Notes under the pieces: generated by a model
The model's database searches: none
Seen by the model: the letters and a program-made list of their open reading frames with translations, nothing else
What the model was told of the DNA's origin: nothing
In this document: positions 4,668 to 60,878 of the stretch, in pieces
How the letters are laid out: every line of letters starts with the position of its first letter
Position numbering within the stretch: position 1 is the first letter of the stretch
Program-made: the position numbers and the translations under genes
Origin: a virus
Taxonomy: Duplodnaviria > Heunggongvirae > Uroviricota > Caudoviricetes
Direction: 5' to 3' (one strand)
Length of the DNA: 64,000 bases
IMG/VR virus record: IMGVR_UViG_3300020045_012956
Coordinates: 1 to 64,000 of that record

Positions 4668-4739
4668 CGCACGTTGGAGAAGTGGTATCTCACTAGCCTC
4701 ATAAGCTAGAGTTCATGGGTTCGAATCCCGTACGTTGCA
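4668..4739 (+). tRNA. tRNA-Met/Ile2-type (anticodon CAT) with a poorly paired acceptor stem
   Basis: D arm gaga-agtggta-tctc, anticodon arm ctagc-ctcataa-gctag, T arm atggg-ttcgaat-cccgt. The 5' acceptor strand pairs at only about 4 of 7 positions. Confidence 0.6.
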
Positions 4740-12771: not shown

Positions 12772-14049
12772 ATGAATTTTAACGTACACAAGGCACAAGC
12801 AAAGTTTTTAACATCAAAGGCAAAAGAAGTTTTTTATATTTCTGGTGTAGGTTCTGGTAAATCTATGAGTTTAGCATTAAAAGCTTATGAGAAATTAGCC
12901 ATTAAGGGTTCAGTAGGGTTAATTTGTGCACCTACAACCAAAACACTTAAAAACTCAACTCTAAAACAGTTTCAAAATGCATGGAATTTGATAGGATTTA
13001 AGCCAAAAGATCACTATGTAATTAATAAAAAACCCCCTGAATTTTGGAACGTTCAACCATTTTCAGAATTAAATAACAACTCAATTTTAACTACAAATTG
13101 GGGTTCGTATGCTATTTTAGACGGTTTGGATAACTTTGATTCGCATCGTGGAATTGAAGTAGATTACATTTTAGTTGATGAGTATAGGGACGTAAAAGAA
13201 GGTGCTAGAGAGGTTTTAGTAAGCCGTTTACGTGGTAAAACATTTAAGAATTTAGGATTACAACAAACTATTCATTATGCAACAACACCCCCAAAAAACC
13301 CTAATTACATAAGAAAAATAGTAAGTAACGAATCTCAAAATATTGAGTTTGTTTTTGGTAATTCTTACGATAATATTAAAAATTTGCCCGCTGGTTATAT
13401 TGAGGCCTTAAAAGAACAATATGATGAAATTACTTTCAGACGTGAGGTAATGGGGGAGCTCATAAGCTTAAATAATAAATTATTTGCATATGCTTTTGAG
13501 TTTGATAAACATTGTGAGTGGTTAATTGCAAATTATAATATGCCAATTTATTTGAGTTTTGACTTTAACGTTAATCCTATGACTTGTATTGCTACTCAAC
13601 GGACACCTAATCAAATTCATGTATTAAAAGAATGGAGATTACCAAATTCAAATATTTACGACATGCTAAATCAAGTAAATAAATATAGCAATAAATTTGC
13701 AAATGTATTTGTAACGGGTGATGCTTCAGGTAATAATAAAAATGCAATGGTACGTGACAATTATACATATTATAAAATAATTGCAAAAGAATTAGAGTTG
13801 GGTAGTGATAATATTAACGTCCCAACATCAAATCCAAAACATGAGAATAGTTTTCAATTAACAAATTCACTATTATTAAAACATGGTAATTTGAAAATTG
13901 ATAAAAGTTGCGTTTGGTTAATTGAGGATTTAGAAATGGTAGGAATTAAAGATGATGGAACTATTGATAAAGAGGATGCAGCAAGGGGGCATTTATTAGA
14001 CTGTTTTAGGTATCAACTTTATACATACGATCGTAATTTTAAGATGTAA
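12772..14049 (+). CDS. terL: terminase large subunit
   Basis: Walker A 'SGVGSGKS' and Walker B 'YILVDE'. The C-terminal nuclease region 'VFVTGDASG' and 'GHLLDCFRY' matches the terminase 'DDxxDAxRY' signature. Confidence 0.7.
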   Translation: MNFNVHKAQAKFLTSKAKEVFYISGVGSGKSMSLALKAYEKLAIKGSVGLICAPTTKTLKNSTLKQFQNAWNLIGFKPKDHYVINKKPPEFWNVQPFSELNNNSILTTNWGSYAILDGLDNFDSHRGIEVDYILVDEYRDVKEGAREVLVSRLRGKTFKNLGLQQTIHYATTPPKNPNYIRKIVSNESQNIEFVFGNSYDNIKNLPAGYIEALKEQYDEITFRREVMGELISLNNKLFAYAFEFDKHCEWLIANYNMPIYLSFDFNVNPMTCIATQRTPNQIHVLKEWRLPNSNIYDMLNQVNKYSNKFANVFVTGDASGNNKNAMVRDNYTYYKIIAKELELGSDNINVPTSNPKHENSFQLTNSLLLKHGNLKIDKSCVWLIEDLEMVGIKDDGTIDKEDAARGHLLDCFRYQLYTYDRNFKM

Positions 14050-16704: not shown

Positions 16705-19700
16705 ATGGCTGAAAAGGTAATAATTGAGTTTGAACTATCCACAGAACAAGCGCAAAAATCATTAGAAAACTACATAAAAGCTATTCAAAAAGTTAACGAA
16801 TCTTTTGCAGATACAAGTAAAAAAGGCGTTGACTCTATGAATGCAGTTGACAAAGAAGTAAAAGAAACAACCGGATTAATAAACAAATTACGTGAACAAG
16901 AAAGTTTATTAAAAAAGTCTAGAGATTCTGCAAATGATGTAAATTCATTACGTAAATTCAATAATGAATTGAGAAAAACACAAACAGAATTACAAAGACT
17001 TGAATCAGTTGGAAAATCAGCGTTTTCTAAGATATTAGAAGATGCTAGAGCTACATTTACAGGTATTGCAGCTTTTAACGTCGCACAAGCGGGCTTACAA
17101 GGCATTAAAGACATTTTTAGTACTGGTTTTAATGCTGCTGTTAATCAAGAACAGTTTTTAATAAGTGCGGAAGTAATGTTAGGTAGTGCCGAAGCTGCAA
17201 AAATATTAAATCAAGAATTAACAGATTTAGCAGCTAGAACACCCTTTGAAAGTTCAGATTTGCAACAAGCAACAAAGGTTTTGTTAGGTTTTGGAGTTGA
17301 GGCTGACAAGTTATTACCAACTTTGAAAACTTTAGGAGATGTTTCAGGGGGCAACAGTGAAAAGCTTAACTCACTTGCACTTGCATTTGGTCAAGTTAAA
17401 GCTGCTGGCCGTTTAATGGGTCAAGAGGTTTTACAAATGATTAATGCAGGTTTTAACCCTTTACAAGAAATAAGCCGAAATACGGGGAAAAGTATGGCAA
17501 CCCTTAAGGCTGAAATGGAACGTGGTTTAATTGGATTTGACCAAGTTGAAAAGGCTTTTGTTACTGTAACGTCGGAGGGTGGAAAGTTCTTTAACATGAT
17601 GGAACGACAAAGCACCACAACGGGCGGCAAATTATCCACGTTAAAAGATAATTTTGTAATTCTTTTGCGTGATGGTGTTAATTTGTTGTTACCTGCTATA
17701 AACTCATTTATTGACTTTTTGAGTGCTACAATAACGTATATTTATGCTTTTGGGGTCGCTATTGCATCAATTCCAAAGTTTGTAAAAGAAAATAAAGATG
17801 TTTTTATGTTGTTAGGTAGTGCAATAGTATTATTTAACTTGCATTTAATAAGAAGTACTTCTTTATTATTATTAAATTTAGCAGCTCAAAAACTTGCAAT
17901 AATTGAGGGCAAAGCTTTTGCAACCGTTACTAATTTACAAAGTGCAGCATTGACTAGATTAATGGCAATAGCAATGGCAAACCCTTACGGTTTATTAGTT
18001 GGTGGCGTCGCTGCTTTAGTAGCTGGAATAGTTTATTTGAATAAGGAAACTGAAAAAGGAAATAAATTAAGAAACGAAGCTACAGAATCACTTGGAAAAG
18101 AACTTACAAATTTAGAAAGTCTTGTAATAGTTGCAACATCAGATGTTAGAACTAGAGAGGAAAGAATACAAGCTATTAACGAATTAAACGCAGTTTACGG
18201 GCAATATCTTAGCTTTTTAATTGATGAGTATACAAGTTTAGATTTGATAAGAAGGGCACAAGAAGAAGTTACAAGGGCAATGGTAAACAATACTTTGTAT
18301 AAAATGAAAGCTAAGGAACAAGAGGAAAACCTAACTAACCAGGTCAAACAAAGGTTAACCCTTCTAAATATGATTGAAGAAAAGGATAATGGACTTTCAT
18401 CAACCCAAAGAGAGAATTTAGGTAATTTGTTAAGAGAATACGAAACATTAAATATTCAATTAAAAACATTTTCAGAAACTTATGCAAGGTTAAATGAATT
18501 AAAAGAAGAAGAAAAGGAACAAACAAAAACCTTAGCAAGTTTACAAGGCACTTTGAAAGGATTAGATCCAAATTTGCCCGCAAATTTAGCACAAATCAAT
18601 AAATTTAGAAAAGACGAGGCTAATACTTTAGAATTGATAGCAAAAACACAAAATGAAATAAGACAAATTGAAGAAAGAGCCGCAAAAAGAGCTAAAGAGG
18701 ATGGTAATGTTTTTGATACTGAAACAAATATAAAAAGGCGTTTAGAAGTAATTAGGAGAAATGCTGGTGATATTGGTTCAACTGTAACGGGACTTGCAGA
18801 AGGTATTTCAGATTTATTTGGAGATACTAGTATAAGGGCTAATATTGTTAAATACTTTGATAATATCGACAAAGGAGTAAGTACAATTGACAGATATAGA
18901 GTTGCTATTATAGGAACAAATGGAGAAGTAAAGAAAAACACTAACATAGTCAACGCAAATGCAGGTGGGAGCGGTTCAGCGCACGGAAAAGCAGCAAAGC
19001 AATATGAATACAACCTCAAACTAATTGAGGCTAATACAAAGGCTATTGAGGCTAATATTACCAAAATGCAGGAACAAACTGATTTAATTAAATTACAAGA
19101 AATTCAACGTAAATCCAAAGCAACTCAATTAAAAATCGAAATTGATAACCAAGCTTTGCAAACTAGTGTACTTAAAAGAGAATCAACAGAACGACAAAAT
19201 ATAGCACTTAACGAATTACAAAAGGATAGAGACCGTGAACTTGAAAAGCTTAATGATGCTAAGAAAAAAGCAGAATTGAGGCTTAAAAACGAGTTTATAA
19301 CAACAGACGAACGTAATAGAATTATTACATTTATTACAACTGAATATCAATCTAATCTTTTGCAATTGACTAATAATTTTGAGAGTGAAAAAAATAAAAT
19401 TACTGATGCTTATCAAAATGATAATTTGAAAATTGTTGAGTTTAGTTATCAAAAACAAGTGCAATACTTAAACACTTTTATAGATCAACAAAAAGAAGCC
19501 TTAAAAAAGGGTGTTATTGAGTTAAACGACATTAATAAACAGTTTCAAGTTGCTAAAATTGCGGATATTGGAAGTTCACAGGCACAAGGCGCTAGTCAAT
19601 TAATTGAAAAGGATAGACAAGTAGAAAATGAAAACTTGGTACAAAAAGAATTATTAGAAGCTAGAAAAAAGAATGAAGATGAACTTTCAGAAGCTAAAAG

Positions 19701-20979
19701 AAAACGTATTTATGCTGGTACAATTCAAGAAATAGCAGCTATTGAATTAGAAATAGATGCTTACAAAGCTAAATTAAAAGTAATTGAAAATGATTTGGAT
19801 AAGTCAGCACAAAGAAGGTATGATATAGAATATTCTTACTTACAAAAAGTTAATGAATTGAATTTGAGAATCTTAAATGAACAAATTGAGAAAAGAGAAA
19901 AAGCAGAACAAGACATTCAAGACCGTTTAAGCTCAATTCGTGATAATGTAGCAAAACAAGGAGGTTTAGGGGGTGAAATAGGGCAAAATATTATCAATTT
20001 AGGTAATGACTTTATAAAATTGCAAGTTAAATTTGAAGAAACTGCAATGGCTTTAAGGTTAAAAGCTAGAAAAGAAGGTTTGCAAAAGTTGTATGATGCT
20101 GAAGTTGCCGCAAATGGCAAACAGTCTGAATTAGCAAAGAAGTTAAAAGCAGAAATTGAAGATAATGAGAAAGAAACTATTGAGGCTCAAAAACAATTTC
20201 AAATTCAACGTTTTAACTCAACTGTTGACTTTATCTTAAATTCTGTTTTAGCCGTTACTAGTGCATTAGGGCAAATAATTGATGTTCAAATTGCACAACA
20301 AGACAGATTAATTAAGGCACAAGAACAAAGAGTTGAAGAGGCTGAAAAGTTAGCAGAAAAAGGAAATGCAGTTCAATTAAAACTAGAAAAGCAGCGTTTG
20401 GATGACTTAAATAAGGAGCGTGAAAAGTTTGTACGTAAGCAGCAAGCTTTAGCAGTCATTGAATTATTAGCTAATAGTGCGGCTGCAATTGCTAAGAGTG
20501 CAAACATGCCCCCACCTTTTAACATTATTGCAATAGCGGCAACGGTAGCGGCTTTGGGGGCTGGTTTAGTAGCTGCAAAACAAAAAGCGCAAGCGGCTGC
20601 AAGTGGATTCAAAACGGGTGGTTATACTGGAGACGGTTCAACGAGTCAAGAGGCTGGAGTGGTTCACAAAAAAGAGTTTGTTTTTACGGCTGAAAAAACC
20701 GCAAAGTATAAACCTATATTTCAGGCAATCCACGAAAATAGATTAGATTTGAATAAAGCTTTATTGATGCCAAAAATGAAAGAAAGTGTATTAATGATGC
20801 GAGGGGGTGAAACTACGAATTTAGATACTAGTAATTTGGAAAAAAGAATGGAAAATATTGAAAGTGCTATTTTGAGTTTACCAAATAAAATGCCTCAAAC
20901 AAATGTAAGTATCAATGAACATGGTATTTATGCAATTACAGAAAGACAAAAGAAATTAAACAATAGGTTAAAAGGTTAG
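16705..20979 (+). CDS. tail tape measure protein (TP901-family core)
   Basis: 1424 aa, largely coiled coil. The region 'LAFGQVKAAGRLMGQEVLQMINAGFNPLQEIS' and 'GGKFFNMMERQSTTTGGKLSTLKDN' matches the TP901-type tape measure core. Internal TM segments; C-terminal 'GGYTGDG'. Confidence 0.8.
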   Translation: MAEKVIIEFELSTEQAQKSLENYIKAIQKVNESFADTSKKGVDSMNAVDKEVKETTGLINKLREQESLLKKSRDSANDVNSLRKFNNELRKTQTELQRLESVGKSAFSKILEDARATFTGIAAFNVAQAGLQGIKDIFSTGFNAAVNQEQFLISAEVMLGSAEAAKILNQELTDLAARTPFESSDLQQATKVLLGFGVEADKLLPTLKTLGDVSGGNSEKLNSLALAFGQVKAAGRLMGQEVLQMINAGFNPLQEISRNTGKSMATLKAEMERGLIGFDQVEKAFVTVTSEGGKFFNMMERQSTTTGGKLSTLKDNFVILLRDGVNLLLPAINSFIDFLSATITYIYAFGVAIASIPKFVKENKDVFMLLGSAIVLFNLHLIRSTSLLLLNLAAQKLAIIEGKAFATVTNLQSAALTRLMAIAMANPYGLLVGGVAALVAGIVYLNKETEKGNKLRNEATESLGKELTNLESLVIVATSDVRTREERIQAINELNAVYGQYLSFLIDEYTSLDLIRRAQEEVTRAMVNNTLYKMKAKEQEENLTNQVKQRLTLLNMIEEKDNGLSSTQRENLGNLLREYETLNIQLKTFSETYARLNELKEEEKEQTKTLASLQGTLKGLDPNLPANLAQINKFRKDEANTLELIAKTQNEIRQIEERAAKRAKEDGNVFDTETNIKRRLEVIRRNAGDIGSTVTGLAEGISDLFGDTSIRANIVKYFDNIDKGVSTIDRYRVAIIGTNGEVKKNTNIVNANAGGSGSAHGKAAKQYEYNLKLIEANTKAIEANITKMQEQTDLIKLQEIQRKSKATQLKIEIDNQALQTSVLKRESTERQNIALNELQKDRDRELEKLNDAKKKAELRLKNEFITTDERNRIITFITTEYQSNLLQLTNNFESEKNKITDAYQNDNLKIVEFSYQKQVQYLNTFIDQQKEALKKGVIELNDINKQFQVAKIADIGSSQAQGASQLIEKDRQVENENLVQKELLEARKKNEDELSEAKRKRIYAGTIQEIAAIELEIDAYKAKLKVIENDLDKSAQRRYDIEYSYLQKVNELNLRILNEQIEKREKAEQDIQDRLSSIRDNVAKQGGLGGEIGQNIINLGNDFIKLQVKFEETAMALRLKARKEGLQKLYDAEVAANGKQSELAKKLKAEIEDNEKETIEAQKQFQIQRFNSTVDFILNSVLAVTSALGQIIDVQIAQQDRLIKAQEQRVEEAEKLAEKGNAVQLKLEKQRLDDLNKEREKFVRKQQALAVIELLANSAAAIAKSANMPPPFNIIAIAATVAALGAGLVAAKQKAQAAASGFKTGGYTGDGSTSQEAGVVHKKEFVFTAEKTAKYKPIFQAIHENRLDLNKALLMPKMKESVLMMRGGETTNLDTSNLEKRMENIESAILSLPNKMPQTNVSINEHGIYAITERQKKLNNRLKG

Positions 20980-21002
20980 ATTTGTATTCATAAATTTTTA
21001 TA

Positions 21003-21029
21003 AGGCTGTTAGAAATAACAGCTTTTTTA
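21003..21029 (+). terminator. rho-independent terminator after the tape measure gene
   Basis: Hairpin ggctgtt-agaaat-aacagc followed by 'ttttttatt'. Confidence 0.55.
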
Positions 21030-21086
21030 TTGTTGAAAATCAAGTATTTAGAAAATAATTAAAAAATAATTTGCTTTTTTTGTATT

Positions 21087-21114
21087 TTGTATTACAAAAA
21101 GTATTAACTTTGCA
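21087..21114 (+). promoter_or_regulatory. early promoter (conserved family) driving the tRNA-like cluster
   Basis: The sequence ttgtattacaaaaagtattaactttgca ends 9 nt before the tRNA-like gene. Confidence 0.5.
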
Positions 21115-21123
21115 TTGTTGAAA

Positions 21124-21307
21124 TGGTCGGGTGGCGAAATGGTAAACGCATAAGAGCAAGTCACGTATAAGAGCAAGTATCTTTAAGGAAATTGATAAAA
21201 GCATGAAGACTAGTTAGTAGTGTAAGTAATTATAAGAGAAACAAAAAGGAGTAATTAACCTAATAAAAGTATCTTATTCCTTTGTTGGTTCGATTCCAAC
21301 CCCGACC
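21124..21307 (+). tRNA. tRNA-like gene with a ~110-nt insertion where the anticodon arm should be (intron-like or disrupted)
   Basis: Perfect 7-bp acceptor stem ggtcggg/cccgacc, D arm gcga-aatggtaa-acgc, T arm gttgg-ttcgatt-ccaac. The insert contains the tandem duplication 'ataagagcaagt' x2. No canonical 7-nt anticodon loop can be reconstructed at any splice point. Confidence 0.45.
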
Positions 21308-21371
21308 CCATAAAATGCAACTCCGTAATATTTGATTATGTCATACCCTTAATGGTTGGAGCAATGCTAGC

Positions 21372-21441
21372 AGCCTTTTAGTTTAATTGGATAAAATGAC
21401 CATTGCGAAATGGTAGATTAGGGTTCGAATCCTTAAAAGGC
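21372..21441 (+). ncRNA. tRNA-shaped RNA with a 6-bp stem and GNRA tetraloop (accatt-gcga-aatggt) in place of the anticodon arm
   Basis: Acceptor gcctttt/aaaaggc (7 bp), D arm ttta-attgga-taaa, T arm aggg-ttcgaat-cctt. The loop cannot be an anticodon loop. Confidence 0.4.
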
Positions 21442-21664
21442 ACAAACTTCGAAGTCAAAACCATTGTTGTATCTACAATATTAACGGTTTAGCGGGTGTT
21501 TGATTAAAAAAGATATTACTAATGTGATATTTAGATGTAGAAGGTTTATTCTTTAGATACCTACACAATTCACAATTGGTTTTTATTCAGTGAGGATAGT
21601 TTTTAATAGGAAATTTTTTGACTCACATTTTTTTATAAAACAATTAAAACATAAATAAAAGATA

Positions 21665-21892
21665 ATGAAACAAATAACAATTATATTTTTAGCTTTGATG
21701 TTTTTTACATCTTGCCATGAAGCTAAACAAATAAAATCAAAAGAAGTTGAGTATGAGCGAGTTGGAAATAATTTTAGCATATTTTATCTTAAAATCAAAG
21801 GAATGGATTATGCAATATCTTCCAGTGGAAATTCTTTTAGAAATCTAACATTAGATAGTCTACAATTCGAATATTATAAGAATCTAAAATAA
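21665..21892 (+). CDS. small lipoprotein
   Basis: The signal 'MKQITIIFLALMFFTSC' carries a lipobox (FTSC). It shares a 23-nt leader 'aacaattaaaacataaataaaa' with the next gene. Confidence 0.4.
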   Translation: MKQITIIFLALMFFTSCHEAKQIKSKEVEYERVGNNFSIFYLKIKGMDYAISSSGNSFRNLTLDSLQFEYYKNLK

Positions 21893-21913: not shown

Positions 21914-22315
21914 ATGAAATTAACAGGTAAGTTATTTAGAATTATGGACACTCAAAACGTGAGTGCAACCTATAAAAAACGAGAATTCGTTTTGGAAGTT
22001 GCTGAAAATCCAGCATTTCCACAAATGATTAAATTAGAACTTTCTCAAGACCGTTGCAGCGTTTTAGATAAGTTCAAATTAGAACAAATCGTAGAATGTG
22101 ATATAAACCTAAGGGGGCGTATTTGGATTAATCCGCAAGGCGTTGAAACGTTTTTTAACACTATTGAAGCGTGGAGAATTGCACCCGTTGGAACTGAAAC
22201 ACAACCAACTACGACAACTACAAACGTAAAAGAAGAGTTGTATAAACCACAACCACCCGAAAACGTTAAGCCTCAAGAATTTACAAACCCAGTAAGCGAC
22301 GATTTACCTTTTTAA
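21914..22315 (+). CDS. DUF3127-like OB-fold protein with an SSB-type acidic C-terminal tail (…DDLPF)
   Basis: 'KREFVLEV...YPQ..K.EL.QDRC..LD.FK...NLRGR.W.NPQG...FFNT.EAWRI' resembles DUF3127. The C-terminus 'SDDLPF' mimics the SSB 'DDDIPF' tip. Confidence 0.5.
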   Translation: MKLTGKLFRIMDTQNVSATYKKREFVLEVAENPAFPQMIKLELSQDRCSVLDKFKLEQIVECDINLRGRIWINPQGVETFFNTIEAWRIAPVGTETQPTTTTTNVKEELYKPQPPENVKPQEFTNPVSDDLPF

Positions 22316-53147: not shown

Positions 53148-55547
53148 ATGAACAACAATTATTTAGAGTTTCTTGAAAAAAAGAAACATTCAATAGGTGA
53201 ATTTGGATTTGAACCAAATTATATGCCTAAAATTGCCTTTGATTTTCAACAGGCAATAATTACAAAAGCAGTTAAAAAAGGGCGTATTGCTGTATTTGCA
53301 GATACAGGATTAGGAAAAGCGCAACCATATTCAGAACCCGTATTAACACCTAATGGATTTATAAAAATGGGTGAACTAAATGTAAATGATTTAGTTATTA
53401 ATTCAGATGGAAAGCATGTTAAAATATTAGGAATTTATGAACAAGGCGTAAAAGATGTTTACAAAGTAACATTTAATGATGGTACATTTACTAGATGCTG
53501 TATTGATCATTTATGGAATGTTAGAACAAGAAACGAAAAGAAAAGAGGATATGACTTTAAAACAAAACCACTCAGTGAAATAATTAAAGATTATTCAAAA
53601 GATATTAAAGATAGTAGGTATCCAGATAAATTATATAAAGATTATAAATATCACATACCAATATGTAATAAAGTTGAATTTGCAGAATCAGAAAATAATT
53701 TACCTATTAATCCTTATTTATTAGGATTGCTTATAGGAGATGGTGGAATGACCAGTAAATCTCTAATTATTACATCAACAAAAAAATCTATATTAAATTC
53801 AGTAACGGAATACTTACCTAAAGAAGATTATTTAGCTGATTCAAAAAGTATTAATTATACAATTAGAAATAAAAAATATTCAAATCAACCTAGCAAAACT
53901 AAAACGGAATTAGTAAAACTTGGATTATTTGGTAAATTATCAAAAGAAAAATTCATACCTGAAATATATAAGTATGCAAGTATTGAAAATAGAGAATTAT
54001 TACTTAATGGATTGATAGATACAGATGGATATAAAGTAAGTAATGATTATATTGAATATAGTACAGCATCAGAAAATCTATGTAATGATATTTCTTTTTT
54101 AGCTAGAAGTTTAGGATATGTTGTTAGAGTTTTTGAAAGAGATTCTCATTATATAAAAGATAATGTAAAACATTCAGGATTTAAAAATTATAGAGTTTAT
54201 ATAATAAAAAACGGTTCTAGAAAATTAAAAACTATAACAAATATCGAATTATGTGATAAAGAAGAATGTAGATGTATTTTAATTGATTGTAAAAGTCATT
54301 TATACATTACAAATAATTTTATTGTAACTCACAATACATTAATCGAGTTGTCAATAGCAAAAAACATTGTAAATCACACAAATAAAAAGGTTTTAATTTT
54401 AACCCCTTTAGCCGTAGCTTTTCAATTACTTCTAGAAGCTGAAAAAATATTTATAGATGACATTGAATATTCAAAGGATGGAAAACACTCAAAAAAAATA
54501 GTTATTTGCAATTATGAAAGATTACATTATTTTGATTCAAATGATTTTATAGCTGTTATTTTAGATGAAAGTTCTATATTAAAAAACTTTGATGGAGCTA
54601 TTAAAAATAAAGTAAATACATTTGTAAAAAAAATTCAATATAGATTTTTAAGTACCGCGACACCTTCTCCAAATGATTTTATCGAATTAGGGACTAGTAG
54701 TGAAGCACTTGGATATATGGGTTATGTAGATATGTTGGGTAAATTTTTTAAACAAAATAATAATGCAATTGATTCAACTAATAAAAATATTGGAGAAAAG
54801 TTCTATTTGAAACCTCACGCAGAAAAAGACTTTTTTGCATGGGTTAATCAATGGTCTATTATGGTAAAAATGCCTAGTGATTTAGGGTTTTCAAATGAAA
54901 AATATATTTTACCTCAATTAATAACTAATAAACATATTGTACAAAATGAAAGCCAAATTGATATAAATGGACAAATACAAATGTTTAATATAGTCGCTAA
55001 AAACTTCAATGAAATTAGACATGAACAAAAACAAACAGAACAACAAAGATGTATAAAAGCTGTTGAGTTAGCTCAAAATAAAACCTCTGTATATTGGTGT
55101 AATACAAATAATGAAAGTGCACTATTGAAAAAAATGGATAAAGAAGCGGTTGAAATTATTGGTAGTCAATCCATCGAAAAGAAAGAAGAAATTTTATTAG
55201 CATTTAGCAAAGGAGAAATAAAACGAATTATTACTAAAGCTAAAATAACATCATTTGGATTAAATTGGCAACATTGCAATCATAGTGTATTTTTTCCTAC
55301 TTGGAGTTATGAACAATATTATCAAGCTATTAGAAGGTTTTGGAGATTTGGACAAAAGAATGATGTTAATATTGATATTGTTGTTTCTGATGGACAAACA
55401 AGAGTACTAGATGCTTTACAACAGAAAACAAAAAAAGCAATTGAACTATACGAAAACCTAACTAAAAACGTTAATAGCGTTTTTGTAAATACTAAAAAAG
55501 AATTCAAAAAAGAAGTTATTTTACCAAAATTTATAAAAAATGAATAA
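53148..55547 (+). CDS. SNF2-family (DExH) helicase interrupted by an intein
   Basis: N-extein '…FADTGLGK' and C-extein 'TLIELSIAKN…' rejoin to the SNF2 motif I 'DTGLGKT'. Also 'ILDESS' (motif II) and 'QAIRRFWRFGQ' (motif VI). Confidence 0.7.
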   Translation: MNNNYLEFLEKKKHSIGEFGFEPNYMPKIAFDFQQAIITKAVKKGRIAVFADTGLGKAQPYSEPVLTPNGFIKMGELNVNDLVINSDGKHVKILGIYEQGVKDVYKVTFNDGTFTRCCIDHLWNVRTRNEKKRGYDFKTKPLSEIIKDYSKDIKDSRYPDKLYKDYKYHIPICNKVEFAESENNLPINPYLLGLLIGDGGMTSKSLIITSTKKSILNSVTEYLPKEDYLADSKSINYTIRNKKYSNQPSKTKTELVKLGLFGKLSKEKFIPEIYKYASIENRELLLNGLIDTDGYKVSNDYIEYSTASENLCNDISFLARSLGYVVRVFERDSHYIKDNVKHSGFKNYRVYIIKNGSRKLKTITNIELCDKEECRCILIDCKSHLYITNNFIVTHNTLIELSIAKNIVNHTNKKVLILTPLAVAFQLLLEAEKIFIDDIEYSKDGKHSKKIVICNYERLHYFDSNDFIAVILDESSILKNFDGAIKNKVNTFVKKIQYRFLSTATPSPNDFIELGTSSEALGYMGYVDMLGKFFKQNNNAIDSTNKNIGEKFYLKPHAEKDFFAWVNQWSIMVKMPSDLGFSNEKYILPQLITNKHIVQNESQIDINGQIQMFNIVAKNFNEIRHEQKQTEQQRCIKAVELAQNKTSVYWCNTNNESALLKKMDKEAVEIIGSQSIEKKEEILLAFSKGEIKRIITKAKITSFGLNWQHCNHSVFFPTWSYEQYYQAIRRFWRFGQKNDVNIDIVVSDGQTRVLDALQQKTKKAIELYENLTKNVNSVFVNTKKEFKKEVILPKFIKNE
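53319..54335 (+). mobile_element. intein (339 aa) with a double-motif LAGLIDADG homing endonuclease, inserted in the helicase P-loop
   Basis: Starts 'AQPYSEPVLTPNGFIKMGELNVNDLVINSDG' (block A-like, Ala1). Two endonuclease motifs: 'LLGLLIGDGGM' and 'LLLNGLIDTDGYK'. It ends '…FIVTHN' followed by the +1 Thr. Confidence 0.65.
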
Positions 55548-60805: not shown

Positions 60806-60878
60806 GTAGACTATTAGCTCAAATTTAGAGCACTTGACTAATGTTTTGAGGTTGTAGGTTAAATCCTGCATAGTCTAC
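60806..60878 (+). tRNA. degenerate tRNA-like gene (pseudo-tRNA): 9-bp acceptor stem, 6-nt T loop, unpaired anticodon stem
   Basis: Acceptor gtagactat/atagtctac, D arm gctc-aaattta-gagc, T arm gtagg-ttaaat-cctgc. The anticodon region 'cttga-ctaatgt-tttga' does not pair. It resembles a decayed copy of the Asn gene. Confidence 0.4.

What the first reader, a model, noticed from the sequence alone, without database searches (positions are those of the whole stretch)
21124..21307. tRNA-like gene whose anticodon arm is replaced by a ~110-nt insertion
Three of the four tRNA arms are textbook. The acceptor stem is a perfect 7-bp ggtcggg/cccgacc with a discriminator, the D arm is gcga-aatggtaa-acgc, and the T arm is gttgg-ttcgatt-ccaac. 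Between the D and T arms sit about 120 nt in place of a 17-nt anticodon arm. That segment carries a tandem duplication of 'ataagagcaagt' and an internal 'aaggag'. No choice of splice point regenerates a canonical 7-nt anticodon loop with U33. The 5' pentamer 'taaga' pairs with 'tctta' just before the T arm, which would fit an intron-containing precursor or a deliberately anticodon-less tRNA-shaped RNA. The gene is transcribed from a dedicated copy of the conserved early promoter that ends 9 nt upstream. An insert this short is too small for a group I intron and bacteria lack BHB splicing, so it is either a novel small-intron, permuted or processed tRNA, a decoy, or a disrupted gene.
Basis: seen in the sequence. 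Interest (0 to 1): 0.7.

Follow-up and report, generated by a model that had tools for sequence, protein, structure and literature searches.

The report
Phage tRNA with swapped anticodon domain
A phage gene keeps the outer shape of a transfer RNA, but its codon-reading arm has been replaced by a conserved ~134-base cassette, so it cannot decode and is most likely either a tRNA-shaped carrier RNA or a relic, not an intron-containing tRNA.

Summary
Window 21125-21308 (+) has an intact 7-bp acceptor stem, D arm and T arm, with 134 nt (21150-21283) where a tRNA has about 21 nt. Neither ARAGORN nor Rfam calls it. It is tRNA-derived: the closest relative (L006, 94-96% identical flanks) carries a 72-nt tRNA-Cys(GCA) at the same site behind the same promoter. 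The difference is a clean swap of positions 26-48, bounded by the D and T arms. A more distant relative (L009/L011) carries the same cassette at 91% identity, against 68% at third codon positions (p=1e-7), and lacks the window's 17-nt tandem duplication. No splice restores a U33 anticodon loop, no ribozyme or tmRNA signal was found, and no splicing enzyme was found among the 30 ORFs scanned. The acceptor/T minihelix covaries across four lineages (6 of 12 pairs compensatory) while the anticodon domain differs in each. Best reading (about 0.45): a non-decoding, tRNA-shaped RNA cut from the leader of the SSB operon, with the tRNA frame acting as a processing and stability scaffold for a conserved cassette of unknown role. 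Main rival (about 0.3): a decaying tRNA gene. Only five related lineages were reachable, so function is unproven.

The parts
21002..21025 (+). Intrinsic-terminator-like hairpin that ends the tape-measure transcription unit upstream of the element.
   Evidence: 10-bp stem followed by a T run. The tape-measure ORF 16705-20979 is identified.
21088..21112 (+). Promoter-like motif TGTATTACAA-N6-TTAACTTTG. It contains TAACTTTG, which fits the Bacteroidota -7 consensus TAnnTTTG (my own knowledge).
   Evidence: 12 copies in the window against 0.17 expected, 11 of them on the + strand. The same motif precedes the orthologous gene in L006, L008 and L009.
21125..21308 (+). The tRNA-shaped gene as a whole (184 nt including discriminator C21308). 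CCA is not encoded in the canonical N73-CCA register.
21125..21149 (+). 5' frame: acceptor 5' strand (21125-31), U8 G9, and D arm (21134-49).
   Evidence: The D-stem pair 11:24 is C-G here and U-A in L006 and L009.
21146..21178 (+). 17-nt tandem duplication (unit ACGCATAAGAGCAAGTC). It covers the D-stem 3' strand, position 26, the 5' half of the anticodon-position stem and its loop. It is absent from L009.
21150..21283 (+). The 134-nt cassette that replaces positions 26-48 (anticodon arm plus variable loop) of the tRNA.
   Evidence: Alignment with L006 breaks exactly here (L006 66-640 matches window 20563-21147, and L006 663-826 matches 21283-21446). The cassette is 91% identical to L009's once the duplication is removed.
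21168..21184 (+). Residual hairpin at the anticodon-arm position: UAAGA-GCAAGUA-UCUUU. It has no U33. L009 has UAAGA-GCAAGUC-UCUUU directly after the D arm.
21211..21233 (+). Internal hairpin H2 with loop GUAAGUA (or AGUGUA in the other register). It lies inside the 21-nt block ACTAGTTAGTAGTGTAAGTAA, which is identical in L009.
   Evidence: Both substitutions relative to L009 keep the pairs (U-A to U-G, G-U to G-C).
21245..21283 (+). 10-bp hairpin H3 (aaaggagtaa / ttattccttt) that abuts the T stem like a long variable arm. It contains the 'aaggag'.
   Evidence: G21251-U21277 becomes G-C in L009.
21272..21277 (+). Alternative 3' strand (tcttat) of a 6-bp long-range stem with 21150-21155 (ataaga). 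It is mutually exclusive with H3.
   Evidence: about 6 kcal/mol worse than the local-hairpin fold in both the window and L009. Pair 21150:21277 is A-U here and G-C in L009.
21284..21308 (+). 3' frame: T arm (21284-21300), acceptor 3' strand (21301-07) and discriminator C.
21372..21443 (+). Second tRNA gene of the same transcription unit, with an 8-nt anticodon loop UUGCGAAA.
   Evidence: Conserved in L006 and L007.
21914..22315 (+). SSB-like gene (DUF3127 / phrog_4932), the first well-identified protein gene of the operon that the element heads. It was used as the anchor to find relatives.

Best explanation
Shown:
- The gene descends from a phage tRNA-Cys-like gene.
- Its entire anticodon domain (positions 26-48) has been exchanged for a 134-nt cassette.
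- The break points lie in the D and T arms.

Inferred:
- The exchange happened by homologous recombination between tRNA-like genes of related phages.
- The product cannot decode: it has no U33 loop and no anticodon.
- It is transcribed from the operon promoter at 21088-21112 as the first element of the tRNA-tRNA-SSB transcript.
- Host RNase P cuts at G21125, and 3' processing with CCA addition occurs after C21308. These enzymes need only the acceptor/T minihelix and the D/T elbow. The result would be a stable tRNA-shaped RNA of about 185 nt.
- In this reading the tRNA frame is a processing and stability scaffold. The conserved cassette is the functional payload. It contains three hairpins whose loops repeat AAGUA.

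Speculative:
- The payload may be a protein-binding or decoy module in a phage-host conflict over tRNA. This would explain why the anticodon domain differs in every lineage while the frame is kept.
For: Orthology and a clean domain swap:
- L006 has tRNA-Cys(gca) at the same site behind the same promoter (Rfam 44.1 bits).
- The flanks are 94.0% and 96.3% identical, and the alignment breaks exactly at 21147/21283.
- The window's frame is intact.

The frame is under structural selection:
- Across the window, L006, L008 and L009, the acceptor plus T minihelix has 93.8% of cells paired and 6 of 12 pairs with compensatory changes.
- 0 of 500 shuffles reach the observed values, and slid controls give at most 62.5% paired.
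- D-stem pair 11:24 also covaries.

The cassette is conserved:
- It is 106/116 = 91% identical to L009, against 215/318 = 68% at third codon positions and 38/58 at 4-fold sites in three orthologous genes (Fisher p=1.3e-7 and 6.7e-5).
- It is still higher than the adjacent SSB third positions (p=0.015).
- All three substitutions that fall in predicted stems keep pairing.
- AAGTA occurs 3 times in 134 nt against 0.34 expected.

Architecture and variability:
- Promoter immediately upstream, terminator before it, and none up to the SSB gene.
- Five lineages show four different anticodon domains on a tRNA-like frame: L006 canonical, window and L009 long, L008 with a 12-nt loop, L044/L045 aberrant.
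Against: - L009's acceptor stem has two central mismatches (AGUCGGG / CCCUUCU), so the frame is not strictly maintained wherever the cassette is found.
- The window carries a 17-nt tandem duplication that perturbs the D-stem/position-26 junction. That looks like slippage in relaxed sequence.
- The closest relative does without the cassette.
- Predicted folding is not more stable than shuffled sequence (z = -1.67 for the window, +0.76 for L009).
- Only two independent copies of the cassette exist in all reachable data.
- The cassette's high identity could reflect recent lateral exchange rather than purifying selection. The neighbouring SSB N-terminal domain is also unusually similar.
- There are no expression data.
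- The window holds another clearly degenerate tRNA (60808-60877), so tRNA decay does occur in this phage.
Confidence: 0.45

Rival explanations
1. Decaying tRNA gene. A former tRNA-Cys-like gene was disrupted by insertion or illegitimate recombination of unrelated sequence, followed by a slippage duplication. It yields no useful RNA and persists only because the event is recent or because it spread by recombination among related phages.
For: - An uninterrupted tRNA sits at the same site in the closest relative.
- There is no anticodon loop.
- The window has a 17-nt tandem duplication.
- L009's acceptor is broken.
- L008 and L044/L045 also carry aberrant tRNA-like genes.
- Another degenerate tRNA lies at 60808-60877.
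- The insert has no significant fold stability.
Against: - The cassette is 91% conserved against 68% at third codon positions between phages whose genes are about 76% identical.
- The frame in the window is perfect. Relative to L006 and L009 it carries G1 (making G1-C72) and a compensatory C11-G24.
- The minihelix covaries across lineages.
- Compact phage genomes rarely keep 134 nt of junk directly behind a strong promoter.
Confidence: 0.3
2. The tRNA frame alone is functional, and the cassette is a tolerated passenger. The frame acts as an RNase P / RNase Z processing signal that trims the 5' leader of the SSB-operon mRNA, like a plant mitochondrial t-element.
For: - The element heads the operon with no terminator before the SSB gene.
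- The minihelix covaries while the anticodon domain is free to vary, with four different forms.
- t-elements are a documented precedent (PMC1920247, seen).
Against: - It does not explain why the cassette is more conserved than synonymous sites.
- In the window-L009 comparison the cassette (91%) is more conserved than the 3' frame (T arm 13/17, acceptor 3' strand 4/7).
- L009 keeps the cassette but has a damaged acceptor.
Confidence: 0.12
3. Intron-containing tRNA. The ~111-nt segment is removed, either by itself or by an unknown phage or host activity, to give a decoding tRNA. This would parallel the 79-114-nt 'enigmatic introns' of Lak megaphage tRNAs.
For: - ARAGORN intron mode returns a tRNA 'Met(cat)' with a 111-nt intron.
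- A 6-bp closing stem, ataaga/tcttat, has one compensatory pair in L009.
- Lak phages of Prevotella have tRNA inserts of similar size (PMC6784885).
Against: - The only spliced product has loop AGCAUAU with G33, and the 'intron' lies inside the anticodon.
- The exons do not match the intron-less allele. L006's anticodon arm GAGAC-UUGCACG-GUCUU is unrelated.
- Rfam finds no group I, group II or self-cleaving ribozyme at E<=10.
- The insert is far below the ~200 nt of the smallest bacterial tRNA group I introns (my own knowledge).
- No RNA ligase, RtcB or splicing endonuclease appeared among the 30 ORFs scanned.
- The closing stem is about 6 kcal/mol worse than local hairpins.
- Unlike Lak inserts, it is not at 37/38 and has no internal T-arm-like minihelix.
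Confidence: 0.05
4. DNA-level element. The cassette is a protein-binding or recombination site (repeats ATAAGAG x3, AAGTA x3) that happens to lie in a dead tRNA gene, for example an operator or replication-related site at the boundary between the structural and replication modules.
For: - Short direct repeats occur within the cassette.
- The location is between the tape-measure and SSB/replication modules.
- A strongly conserved non-coding block lies nearby at 21445-21650.
Against: - There is no inverted-repeat operator architecture.
- The three substitutions in predicted stems are RNA-pair-preserving G-U/G-C/U-A changes, which matter only at the RNA level.
- The intact tRNA frame around the cassette is unexplained.
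Confidence: 0.05

Closest known systems
Lak megaphage tRNA 'enigmatic introns' (Devoto et al. 2019, PMC6784885)
   Same: - Phages of Bacteroidota-type hosts.
- tRNA genes carry inserts of about 80-114 nt that Rfam does not recognise.
- The inserts are present or absent among close relatives and highly conserved where present.
   Different: - Lak inserts sit one nucleotide 3' of an intact anticodon, and their removal restores a canonical tRNA.
- In the sequences listed in Table S6, I noticed that they contain an internal stem plus T-arm-like GGTTCGA minihelix. That is my reading of the table, not a claim of the paper.
- Here no canonical loop can be restored, the flanking anticodon stem differs from the insert-free allele, and the cassette has no T-arm-like motif.
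Bacterial group I introns in tRNA anticodon loops (tRNA-Leu(UAA), fMet, Ile, Arg; Patescibacteria Asn/Asp, PMC13011429; review PMC3984707)
   Same: They interrupt the anticodon region of a bacterial-type tRNA gene and make standard tRNA finders miss the gene.
   Different: - Those introns are at least ~200 nt, have a conserved catalytic core, and leave exons that ligate to a canonical tRNA (my own knowledge).
- Here the segment is 111-134 nt, has no Rfam Intron_gpI signal, and gives no canonical product.
tmRNA (tRNA-like domain plus a large internal insertion)
   Same: An acceptor stem formed by the 5' and 3' ends, a T arm, no anticodon arm, and a long internal segment.
   Different: - ARAGORN tmRNA mode gives no call, and Rfam matches only an 11-nt T-loop stretch at 7.1 bits.
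- The pair at 3:70 is U3-A70, not G3:U70.
- A true D stem is present.
- There is no tag reading frame conserved between the window and L009 (my reading).
Plant mitochondrial t-elements, tRNA-like stable RNAs in phage tRNA clusters (T4 species 1 and 2 RNAs), and engineered tRNA scaffolds (Ponchon and Dardel)
   Same: A tRNA-like fold is used only for recognition by RNase P, RNase Z and the CCA enzyme and for stability. In the engineered scaffold, the anticodon arm is replaced by an arbitrary RNA payload, which is the architecture seen here.
   Different: - The t-element precedent rests on PMC1920247, listed. The T4 RNAs and the engineered scaffolds are recalled from my own knowledge.
- No sequence relationship was found.
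- Processing of the present RNA has not been shown.
Class II tRNAs (Leu, Ser, Tyr, Sec) with a long variable arm
   Same: In the energetically preferred fold, the extra RNA lies between a hairpin at the anticodon-arm position and the T arm, and ends in a helix that abuts the T stem.
   Different: - Natural variable arms are roughly 10-25 nt (my own knowledge), whereas here the region is about 100 nt with three hairpins.
- The anticodon-position loop is GCAAGUA/C without U33.

Membership tests
Canonical tRNA (Rfam RF00005 / ARAGORN) | Score above the family threshold over a 70-90-nt cloverleaf. | tested here: not met
   - No RF00005 match at 21125-21308 at the gathering score or at E<=10.
- ARAGORN default gives no call, and lowering the threshold with -ps80 still gives none.
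Canonical tRNA (Rfam RF00005 / ARAGORN) | Acceptor stem, D arm with G18 G19, and T arm with the TPsiC loop. | tested here: met
   - Seen in the sequence.
- The frame plus L006's arm is called tRNA-Cys.
- The minihelix covaries.
Canonical tRNA (Rfam RF00005 / ARAGORN) | A 5-bp anticodon stem with a 7-nt loop, U33 and a purine at 37. | tested here: not met
   The hairpin scan finds at the anticodon-arm position only UAAGA-GCAAGUA-UCUUU, which has C33 and U37. The one internal hairpin with a U at loop position 2 (GUAAGUA) has U37 and lies mid-cassette.
tRNA-Cys | GCA anticodon and U73 discriminator (the CysRS identity set, from my own knowledge). | tested here: not met
   - The window has no GCA in a loop context and has C73.
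- L006 has GCA but A73 and C37.
Group I intron in tRNA | Conserved catalytic core (P3-P9) and length of at least ~200 nt. | tested here: not met
   Rfam scan at E<=10 of 20800-21700 gives no intron or ribozyme family. The segment is 111-134 nt.
Group I intron in tRNA | Exon ligation restores a canonical tRNA identical to intron-less alleles. | tested here: not met
   - ARAGORN -i gives only a G33 loop.
- L006's anticodon arm is unrelated to the window's flanks.
Archaeal/eukaryal protein-spliced tRNA intron (BHB) | A bulge-helix-bulge motif at the exon-intron junctions, and a splicing endonuclease plus ligase. | tested here: inconclusive
   - BHB geometry was not searched explicitly.
- No endonuclease, RtcB or RNA ligase domain appeared in the 30 larger ORFs scanned with Pfam. 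Small ORFs and the host were not tested.
tmRNA | tRNA-Ala-like domain with G3:U70, a resume codon with a tag ORF, and pseudoknots. | tested here: not met
   - ARAGORN -m gives none.
- Rfam tmRNA scores 7.1 bits on the T loop only.
- The 3:70 pair is U3-A70.
Lak-phage type tRNA insert | Insert at position 37/38 of an otherwise canonical anticodon loop, with an internal T-arm-like minihelix. | tested here: not met
   - Compared with Table S6.
- The only GGTTCRANTCC in 21125-21308 is the outer T arm.
Functional structured ncRNA (generic) | Conservation above the neutral rate and covariation in the cassette. | tested here: inconclusive
   - Conservation criterion met: 91% against 68%.
- Covariation cannot be assessed with two sequences. 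Only pair-preserving single changes are seen.
- Fold z-scores are not significant.
RNase P / CCA-enzyme substrate (tRNA-like processing element) | Cleavage at position +1 and CCA addition. | not testable with these tools
   This needs in vitro processing assays or end-mapping RNA-seq.

The most novel reading that the evidence does not exclude
Phages of this clade may use a tRNA frame as a natural, exchangeable display scaffold. The acceptor/T/D shell would guarantee RNase P and CCA processing and give stability. The anticodon domain would be a swappable cassette slot, exchanged by recombination through the conserved D and T arms. The ~100-nt cassette seen here would be an effector RNA with three hairpins presenting AAGUA loops. 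It could be a sponge or decoy for a host tRNA-directed defence or for an RNA-binding protein.
Probability: 0.2. Interest if true: 0.75.

Novelty: new variant of a known kind. Interest (0 to 1): 0.45.

Why it matters
Phage tRNA genes are now seen as players in conflicts with tRNA-targeting host defences (for example PMC10264068). Unexplained inserts in phage tRNAs have been reported only for Lak megaphages.

This locus has an intact, covarying tRNA shell, and four different anticodon domains occur among five related lineages. One of those domains is a conserved ~100-nt cassette that cannot be an ordinary intron.

If the RNA is made and processed, it would be a natural counterpart of the engineered 'tRNA scaffold' and a new class of phage small RNA. 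If it is not, the locus is a well-documented case of how phage tRNA genes decay and are swapped by recombination. Either way, such genes are invisible to standard tRNA finders.

Tried and rejected
Searches for more relatives, all of which came up empty or nearly so:
- blastn of 20900-21500 against 50,697 phage records gave no match. The terminase is at most 26% identical to any cultured phage.
- Exact-pattern scans of IMG/VR with the 5' frame, the 3' frame, the 21-nt cassette core, a degenerate 5' frame and the downstream conserved block gave 0 hits each.
- A JGI metagenome scan with the 18-nt cassette core gave 32 loci. All are chance matches in unrelated contexts.
- Two scans of GTDB genomes gave 0 hits.
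- Protein-anchored searches in IMG/VR with the SSB and the tape-measure C-terminus found only distant, non-syntenic loci.
- Homologues of the tape-measure C-terminus were too distant or lay on contigs too short to help.
- More distant SSB homologues (P0006, P0007, P0008, P0012) have no tRNA-like gene upstream.

Readings considered and rejected:
- tmRNA.
- Known ribozyme or ncRNA families.
- A small ORF behind the 'aaggag'. An ATT-initiated 20-codon frame exists in the window but is stopped after 4 codons in L009 (my reading).
- A repeat or mobile element. There is no second copy of the cassette in the window or in any fetched locus.
- Antisense targets in the window. Complementary matches are no longer than 13-15 nt, at chance level.
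- An integrase or attP explanation. No integrase appeared among the ORFs scanned.

Full report
**Context**

The window is a low-GC (about 27%) tailed-phage genome. ORF 16705-20979 is a tape-measure protein, 12772-14049 a large terminase, and 21914-22315 an SSB-like DUF3127 protein. It has no close relative among 50,697 deposited phages.

The finding lies in the 930-nt non-coding gap between the tape-measure and SSB genes. The order of features in that gap is:
- a terminator-like hairpin at 21002-21025;
- a promoter-like motif TGTATTACAA-N6-TTAACTTTG at 21088-21112, which recurs 12 times in the window against 0.17 expected and contains the Bacteroidota-type TAnnTTTG element (my own knowledge);
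- the element at 21125-21308;
- a second, odd tRNA at 21372-21443;
- a conserved ~200-nt non-coding block, then a small ORF, then the SSB gene.

No terminator-like site lies between the promoter and the SSB gene.

**Checking the observation**

- a perfect 7-bp acceptor stem (21125-31 with 21301-07) and discriminator C21308;
- a D arm at 21134-49;
- a T arm at 21284-21300;
- 134 nt in between;
- a tandem duplication (TRF: 21146-21178, period 17);
- 'aaggag' at 21247-52;
- taaga/tctta complementarity.

ARAGORN and Rfam do not call the element, even at E<=10. ARAGORN's tmRNA mode is silent. Its intron mode gives only a 'tRNA-Met(cat)' with a 111-nt intron inside the anticodon and a loop AGCAUAU carrying G33. 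L009 gets no call at default settings. The frame itself is sound: with L006's 21-nt arm grafted in, ARAGORN calls tRNA-Cys(gca).

**Relatives**

SSB homologues led to the only reachable relatives.

- L006/L007 (SSB 95-96% identical) match the window at 94.0% up to 21147 and at 96.3% from 21283 onward. Between these points L006 has a 21-nt anticodon arm plus variable loop. ARAGORN calls tRNA-Cys(gca) and Rfam gives 44.1 bits. The difference is therefore a clean replacement of tRNA positions 26-48, bounded by the D and T arms. It is not an insertion into an otherwise identical gene, because the anticodon stems are unrelated.
- L009 and L011 come from two different samples and are identical over the region they share. 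Their genes are about 76% identical to the window's. They carry the long form without the 17-nt duplication. There the D arm is followed directly by UAAGA-GCAAGUC-UCUUU and then about 100 nt that are 91% identical to the window. L009's acceptor 3' strand is CCCUUCU, giving two central mismatches. L009 lacks the second tRNA and runs straight into the downstream conserved block.
- L008 has a third form at the same place: a truncated D arm and a 5-bp stem with a 12-nt loop containing GGGCGCCC.
- L044/L045 have a marginal tRNA-like gene (29 bits) with an aberrant anticodon arm.

All other searches for relatives came up empty or gave only chance hits.

**Is it under selection?**

Three lines of evidence bear on this.

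1. The acceptor plus T-stem minihelix across the window, L006, L008 and L009 has 93.8% of cells paired, and 6 of 12 pairs carry compensatory changes. No shuffle out of 500 reaches the observed values, and slid controls give at most 62.5% paired. D-stem pair 11:24 also covaries.
2. The cassette is 106/116 identical between the window and L009. Third codon positions in three orthologous genes are 215/318 identical, and 4-fold sites 38/58 (Fisher p=1.3e-7 and 6.7e-5). Against the adjacent, unusually similar SSB gene alone the excess is weaker (p=0.015). A locally younger recombination block cannot therefore be excluded.
3. All three substitutions that fall in predicted stems preserve pairing.

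Several observations point the other way. Fold stability is not better than shuffled sequence (z = -1.67 for the window, +0.76 for L009). L009's acceptor is damaged. The window's duplication disturbs the core junction.

**Structure**

With the tRNA frame constrained, the preferred fold has four parts:
- a short hairpin at the anticodon-arm position;
- a weakly structured A-rich stretch;
- hairpin H2 (21211-33);
- a 10-bp hairpin H3 (21245-83) abutting the T stem.

The hairpin loops repeat AAGUA: GCAAGUA, GUAAGUA and AAAGUAU. That is 3 occurrences of AAGTA against 0.34 expected.

**What it is and how it probably works**

Shown: a tRNA-derived gene whose anticodon domain has been swapped. It cannot decode, and it is not a group I intron, a tmRNA or any Rfam family.

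Inferred: the swap arose by homologous recombination through the conserved D- and T-arm sequences. The transcript is processed by RNase P and 3' maturation, because only the minihelix and elbow are needed for that (general knowledge of those enzymes). This would release a ~185-nt tRNA-shaped RNA in which the frame acts as scaffold and the conserved cassette as payload.

Speculative: the payload is a decoy or sponge in a tRNA-centred phage-host conflict. This would explain the hypervariable anticodon domain on a conserved shell (compare PMC10264068).

I put about 0.45 on a selected, non-decoding tRNA-shaped RNA. The other readings get about 0.3 for a decaying gene, about 0.12 for a frame-only processing signal with a passenger cassette, about 0.05 for a genuine intron and about 0.05 for a DNA-level element.

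**Comparison with known systems**

The nearest literature precedent is the 'enigmatic introns' of Lak megaphage tRNAs (79-114 nt, no Rfam hit, present or absent among relatives; PMC6784885). Those sit at 37/38 of intact anticodon loops and, as I read Table S6, contain an inner T-arm-like minihelix. This cassette has neither feature.

The architecture resembles tmRNA and engineered tRNA scaffolds, but the membership tests for tRNA, tRNA-Cys, group I intron, tmRNA and the Lak type all fail on at least one defining feature.

**Verdict**

This is a real and moderately interesting feature, and a new variant of the known theme of tRNA-like or pseudo-tRNA genes in phages. Function is unproven because only two independent copies of the cassette and no expression data are available.

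Noticed in passing
window 21372-21443 (+); L006 752-823; L007 76-147: The second tRNA of the same transcription unit has an 8-nt anticodon loop, UUGCGAAA (UUGCGAAG in L006 and L007). ARAGORN reports 'tRNA-???' with a 4-base anticodon gcga; Rfam gives 41.7 bits. It is conserved between the window and L006/L007. It could be a +1-frameshift-type or otherwise non-standard tRNA, or another degenerate one. It is absent from L008 and L009.
   Followed up: partly
window 21445-21650 (+); L008 423-637; L009 198-407; L010; L048: A ~200-nt non-coding block downstream of the tRNAs is more conserved than the coding sequence: 92% with L009 against 68% at third codon positions (p=1e-11), and 80% with L008. 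It has an almost invariant core, TACCTGCACAATTCACA..GGTTTTATTCAGTGAGGATAGTTTTTAATAGGAAATTTTTTGACTCAC. There is no Rfam hit and no covariation in 5 sequences. It is absent from L006. It may be a leader RNA or a regulatory site.
   Followed up: partly
window 60808-60877 (+): A degenerate tRNA-like gene lies next to tRNA-Ser. Rfam gives 39.5 bits. The anticodon stem is broken and the T loop reads GGUUAAAUCC. ARAGORN does not call it.
   Followed up: no
window 4669-4739 (+): A tRNA with anticodon loop CUCAUAA (CAU) is found by Rfam at 54.1 bits but missed by ARAGORN. It has an irregular acceptor stem.
   Followed up: no
window 53148-55547 (+): A helicase-like ORF (799 aa) carries Hom_end and LAGLIDADG_3 domains at residues ~270-352, which suggests an intein inside the replicative helicase/primase gene.
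   Followed up: no
window, 12 sites (14075, 21088, 26048, 32838(-), 32953, 36332, 42923, 47208, 51069, 53102, 59250, 61683): The promoter-like motif TGTATTACAA-N6-TTAACTTTG occurs 12 times against 0.17 expected. It is of Bacteroidota -7 type (TAnnTTTG), which suggests a Bacteroidota host. It precedes operons in both the structural and replication regions, so it is not specifically 'early'.
   Followed up: partly
L044 670-738; L045 141-209: Relatives with 78% SSB identity carry, upstream of the SSB gene, a marginal tRNA-like gene (Rfam 29.2-29.5 bits). It has good D and T arms but an 11-nt stretch in place of most of the anticodon arm, and mismatches in the acceptor stem.
   Followed up: partly
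PMC6784885 Table S6 (Lak phage tRNA inserts): Each of the four distinct Lak 'intron' sequences shown in that part of the table (the A2 Tyr copy repeats A1's) appears to contain its own long stem plus a T-arm-like hairpin: GGTTCGA(A/T)TCC in the Tyr and Phe inserts, and GAGTTCGAATCTC or GAAGTTCGTTTCTTC in the Gly and Thr inserts. The paper proposes an embedded tRNA only for the Thr insert. A tRNA-like minihelix inside the inserts might be how they are excised. This is not part of the present locus.
   Followed up: no
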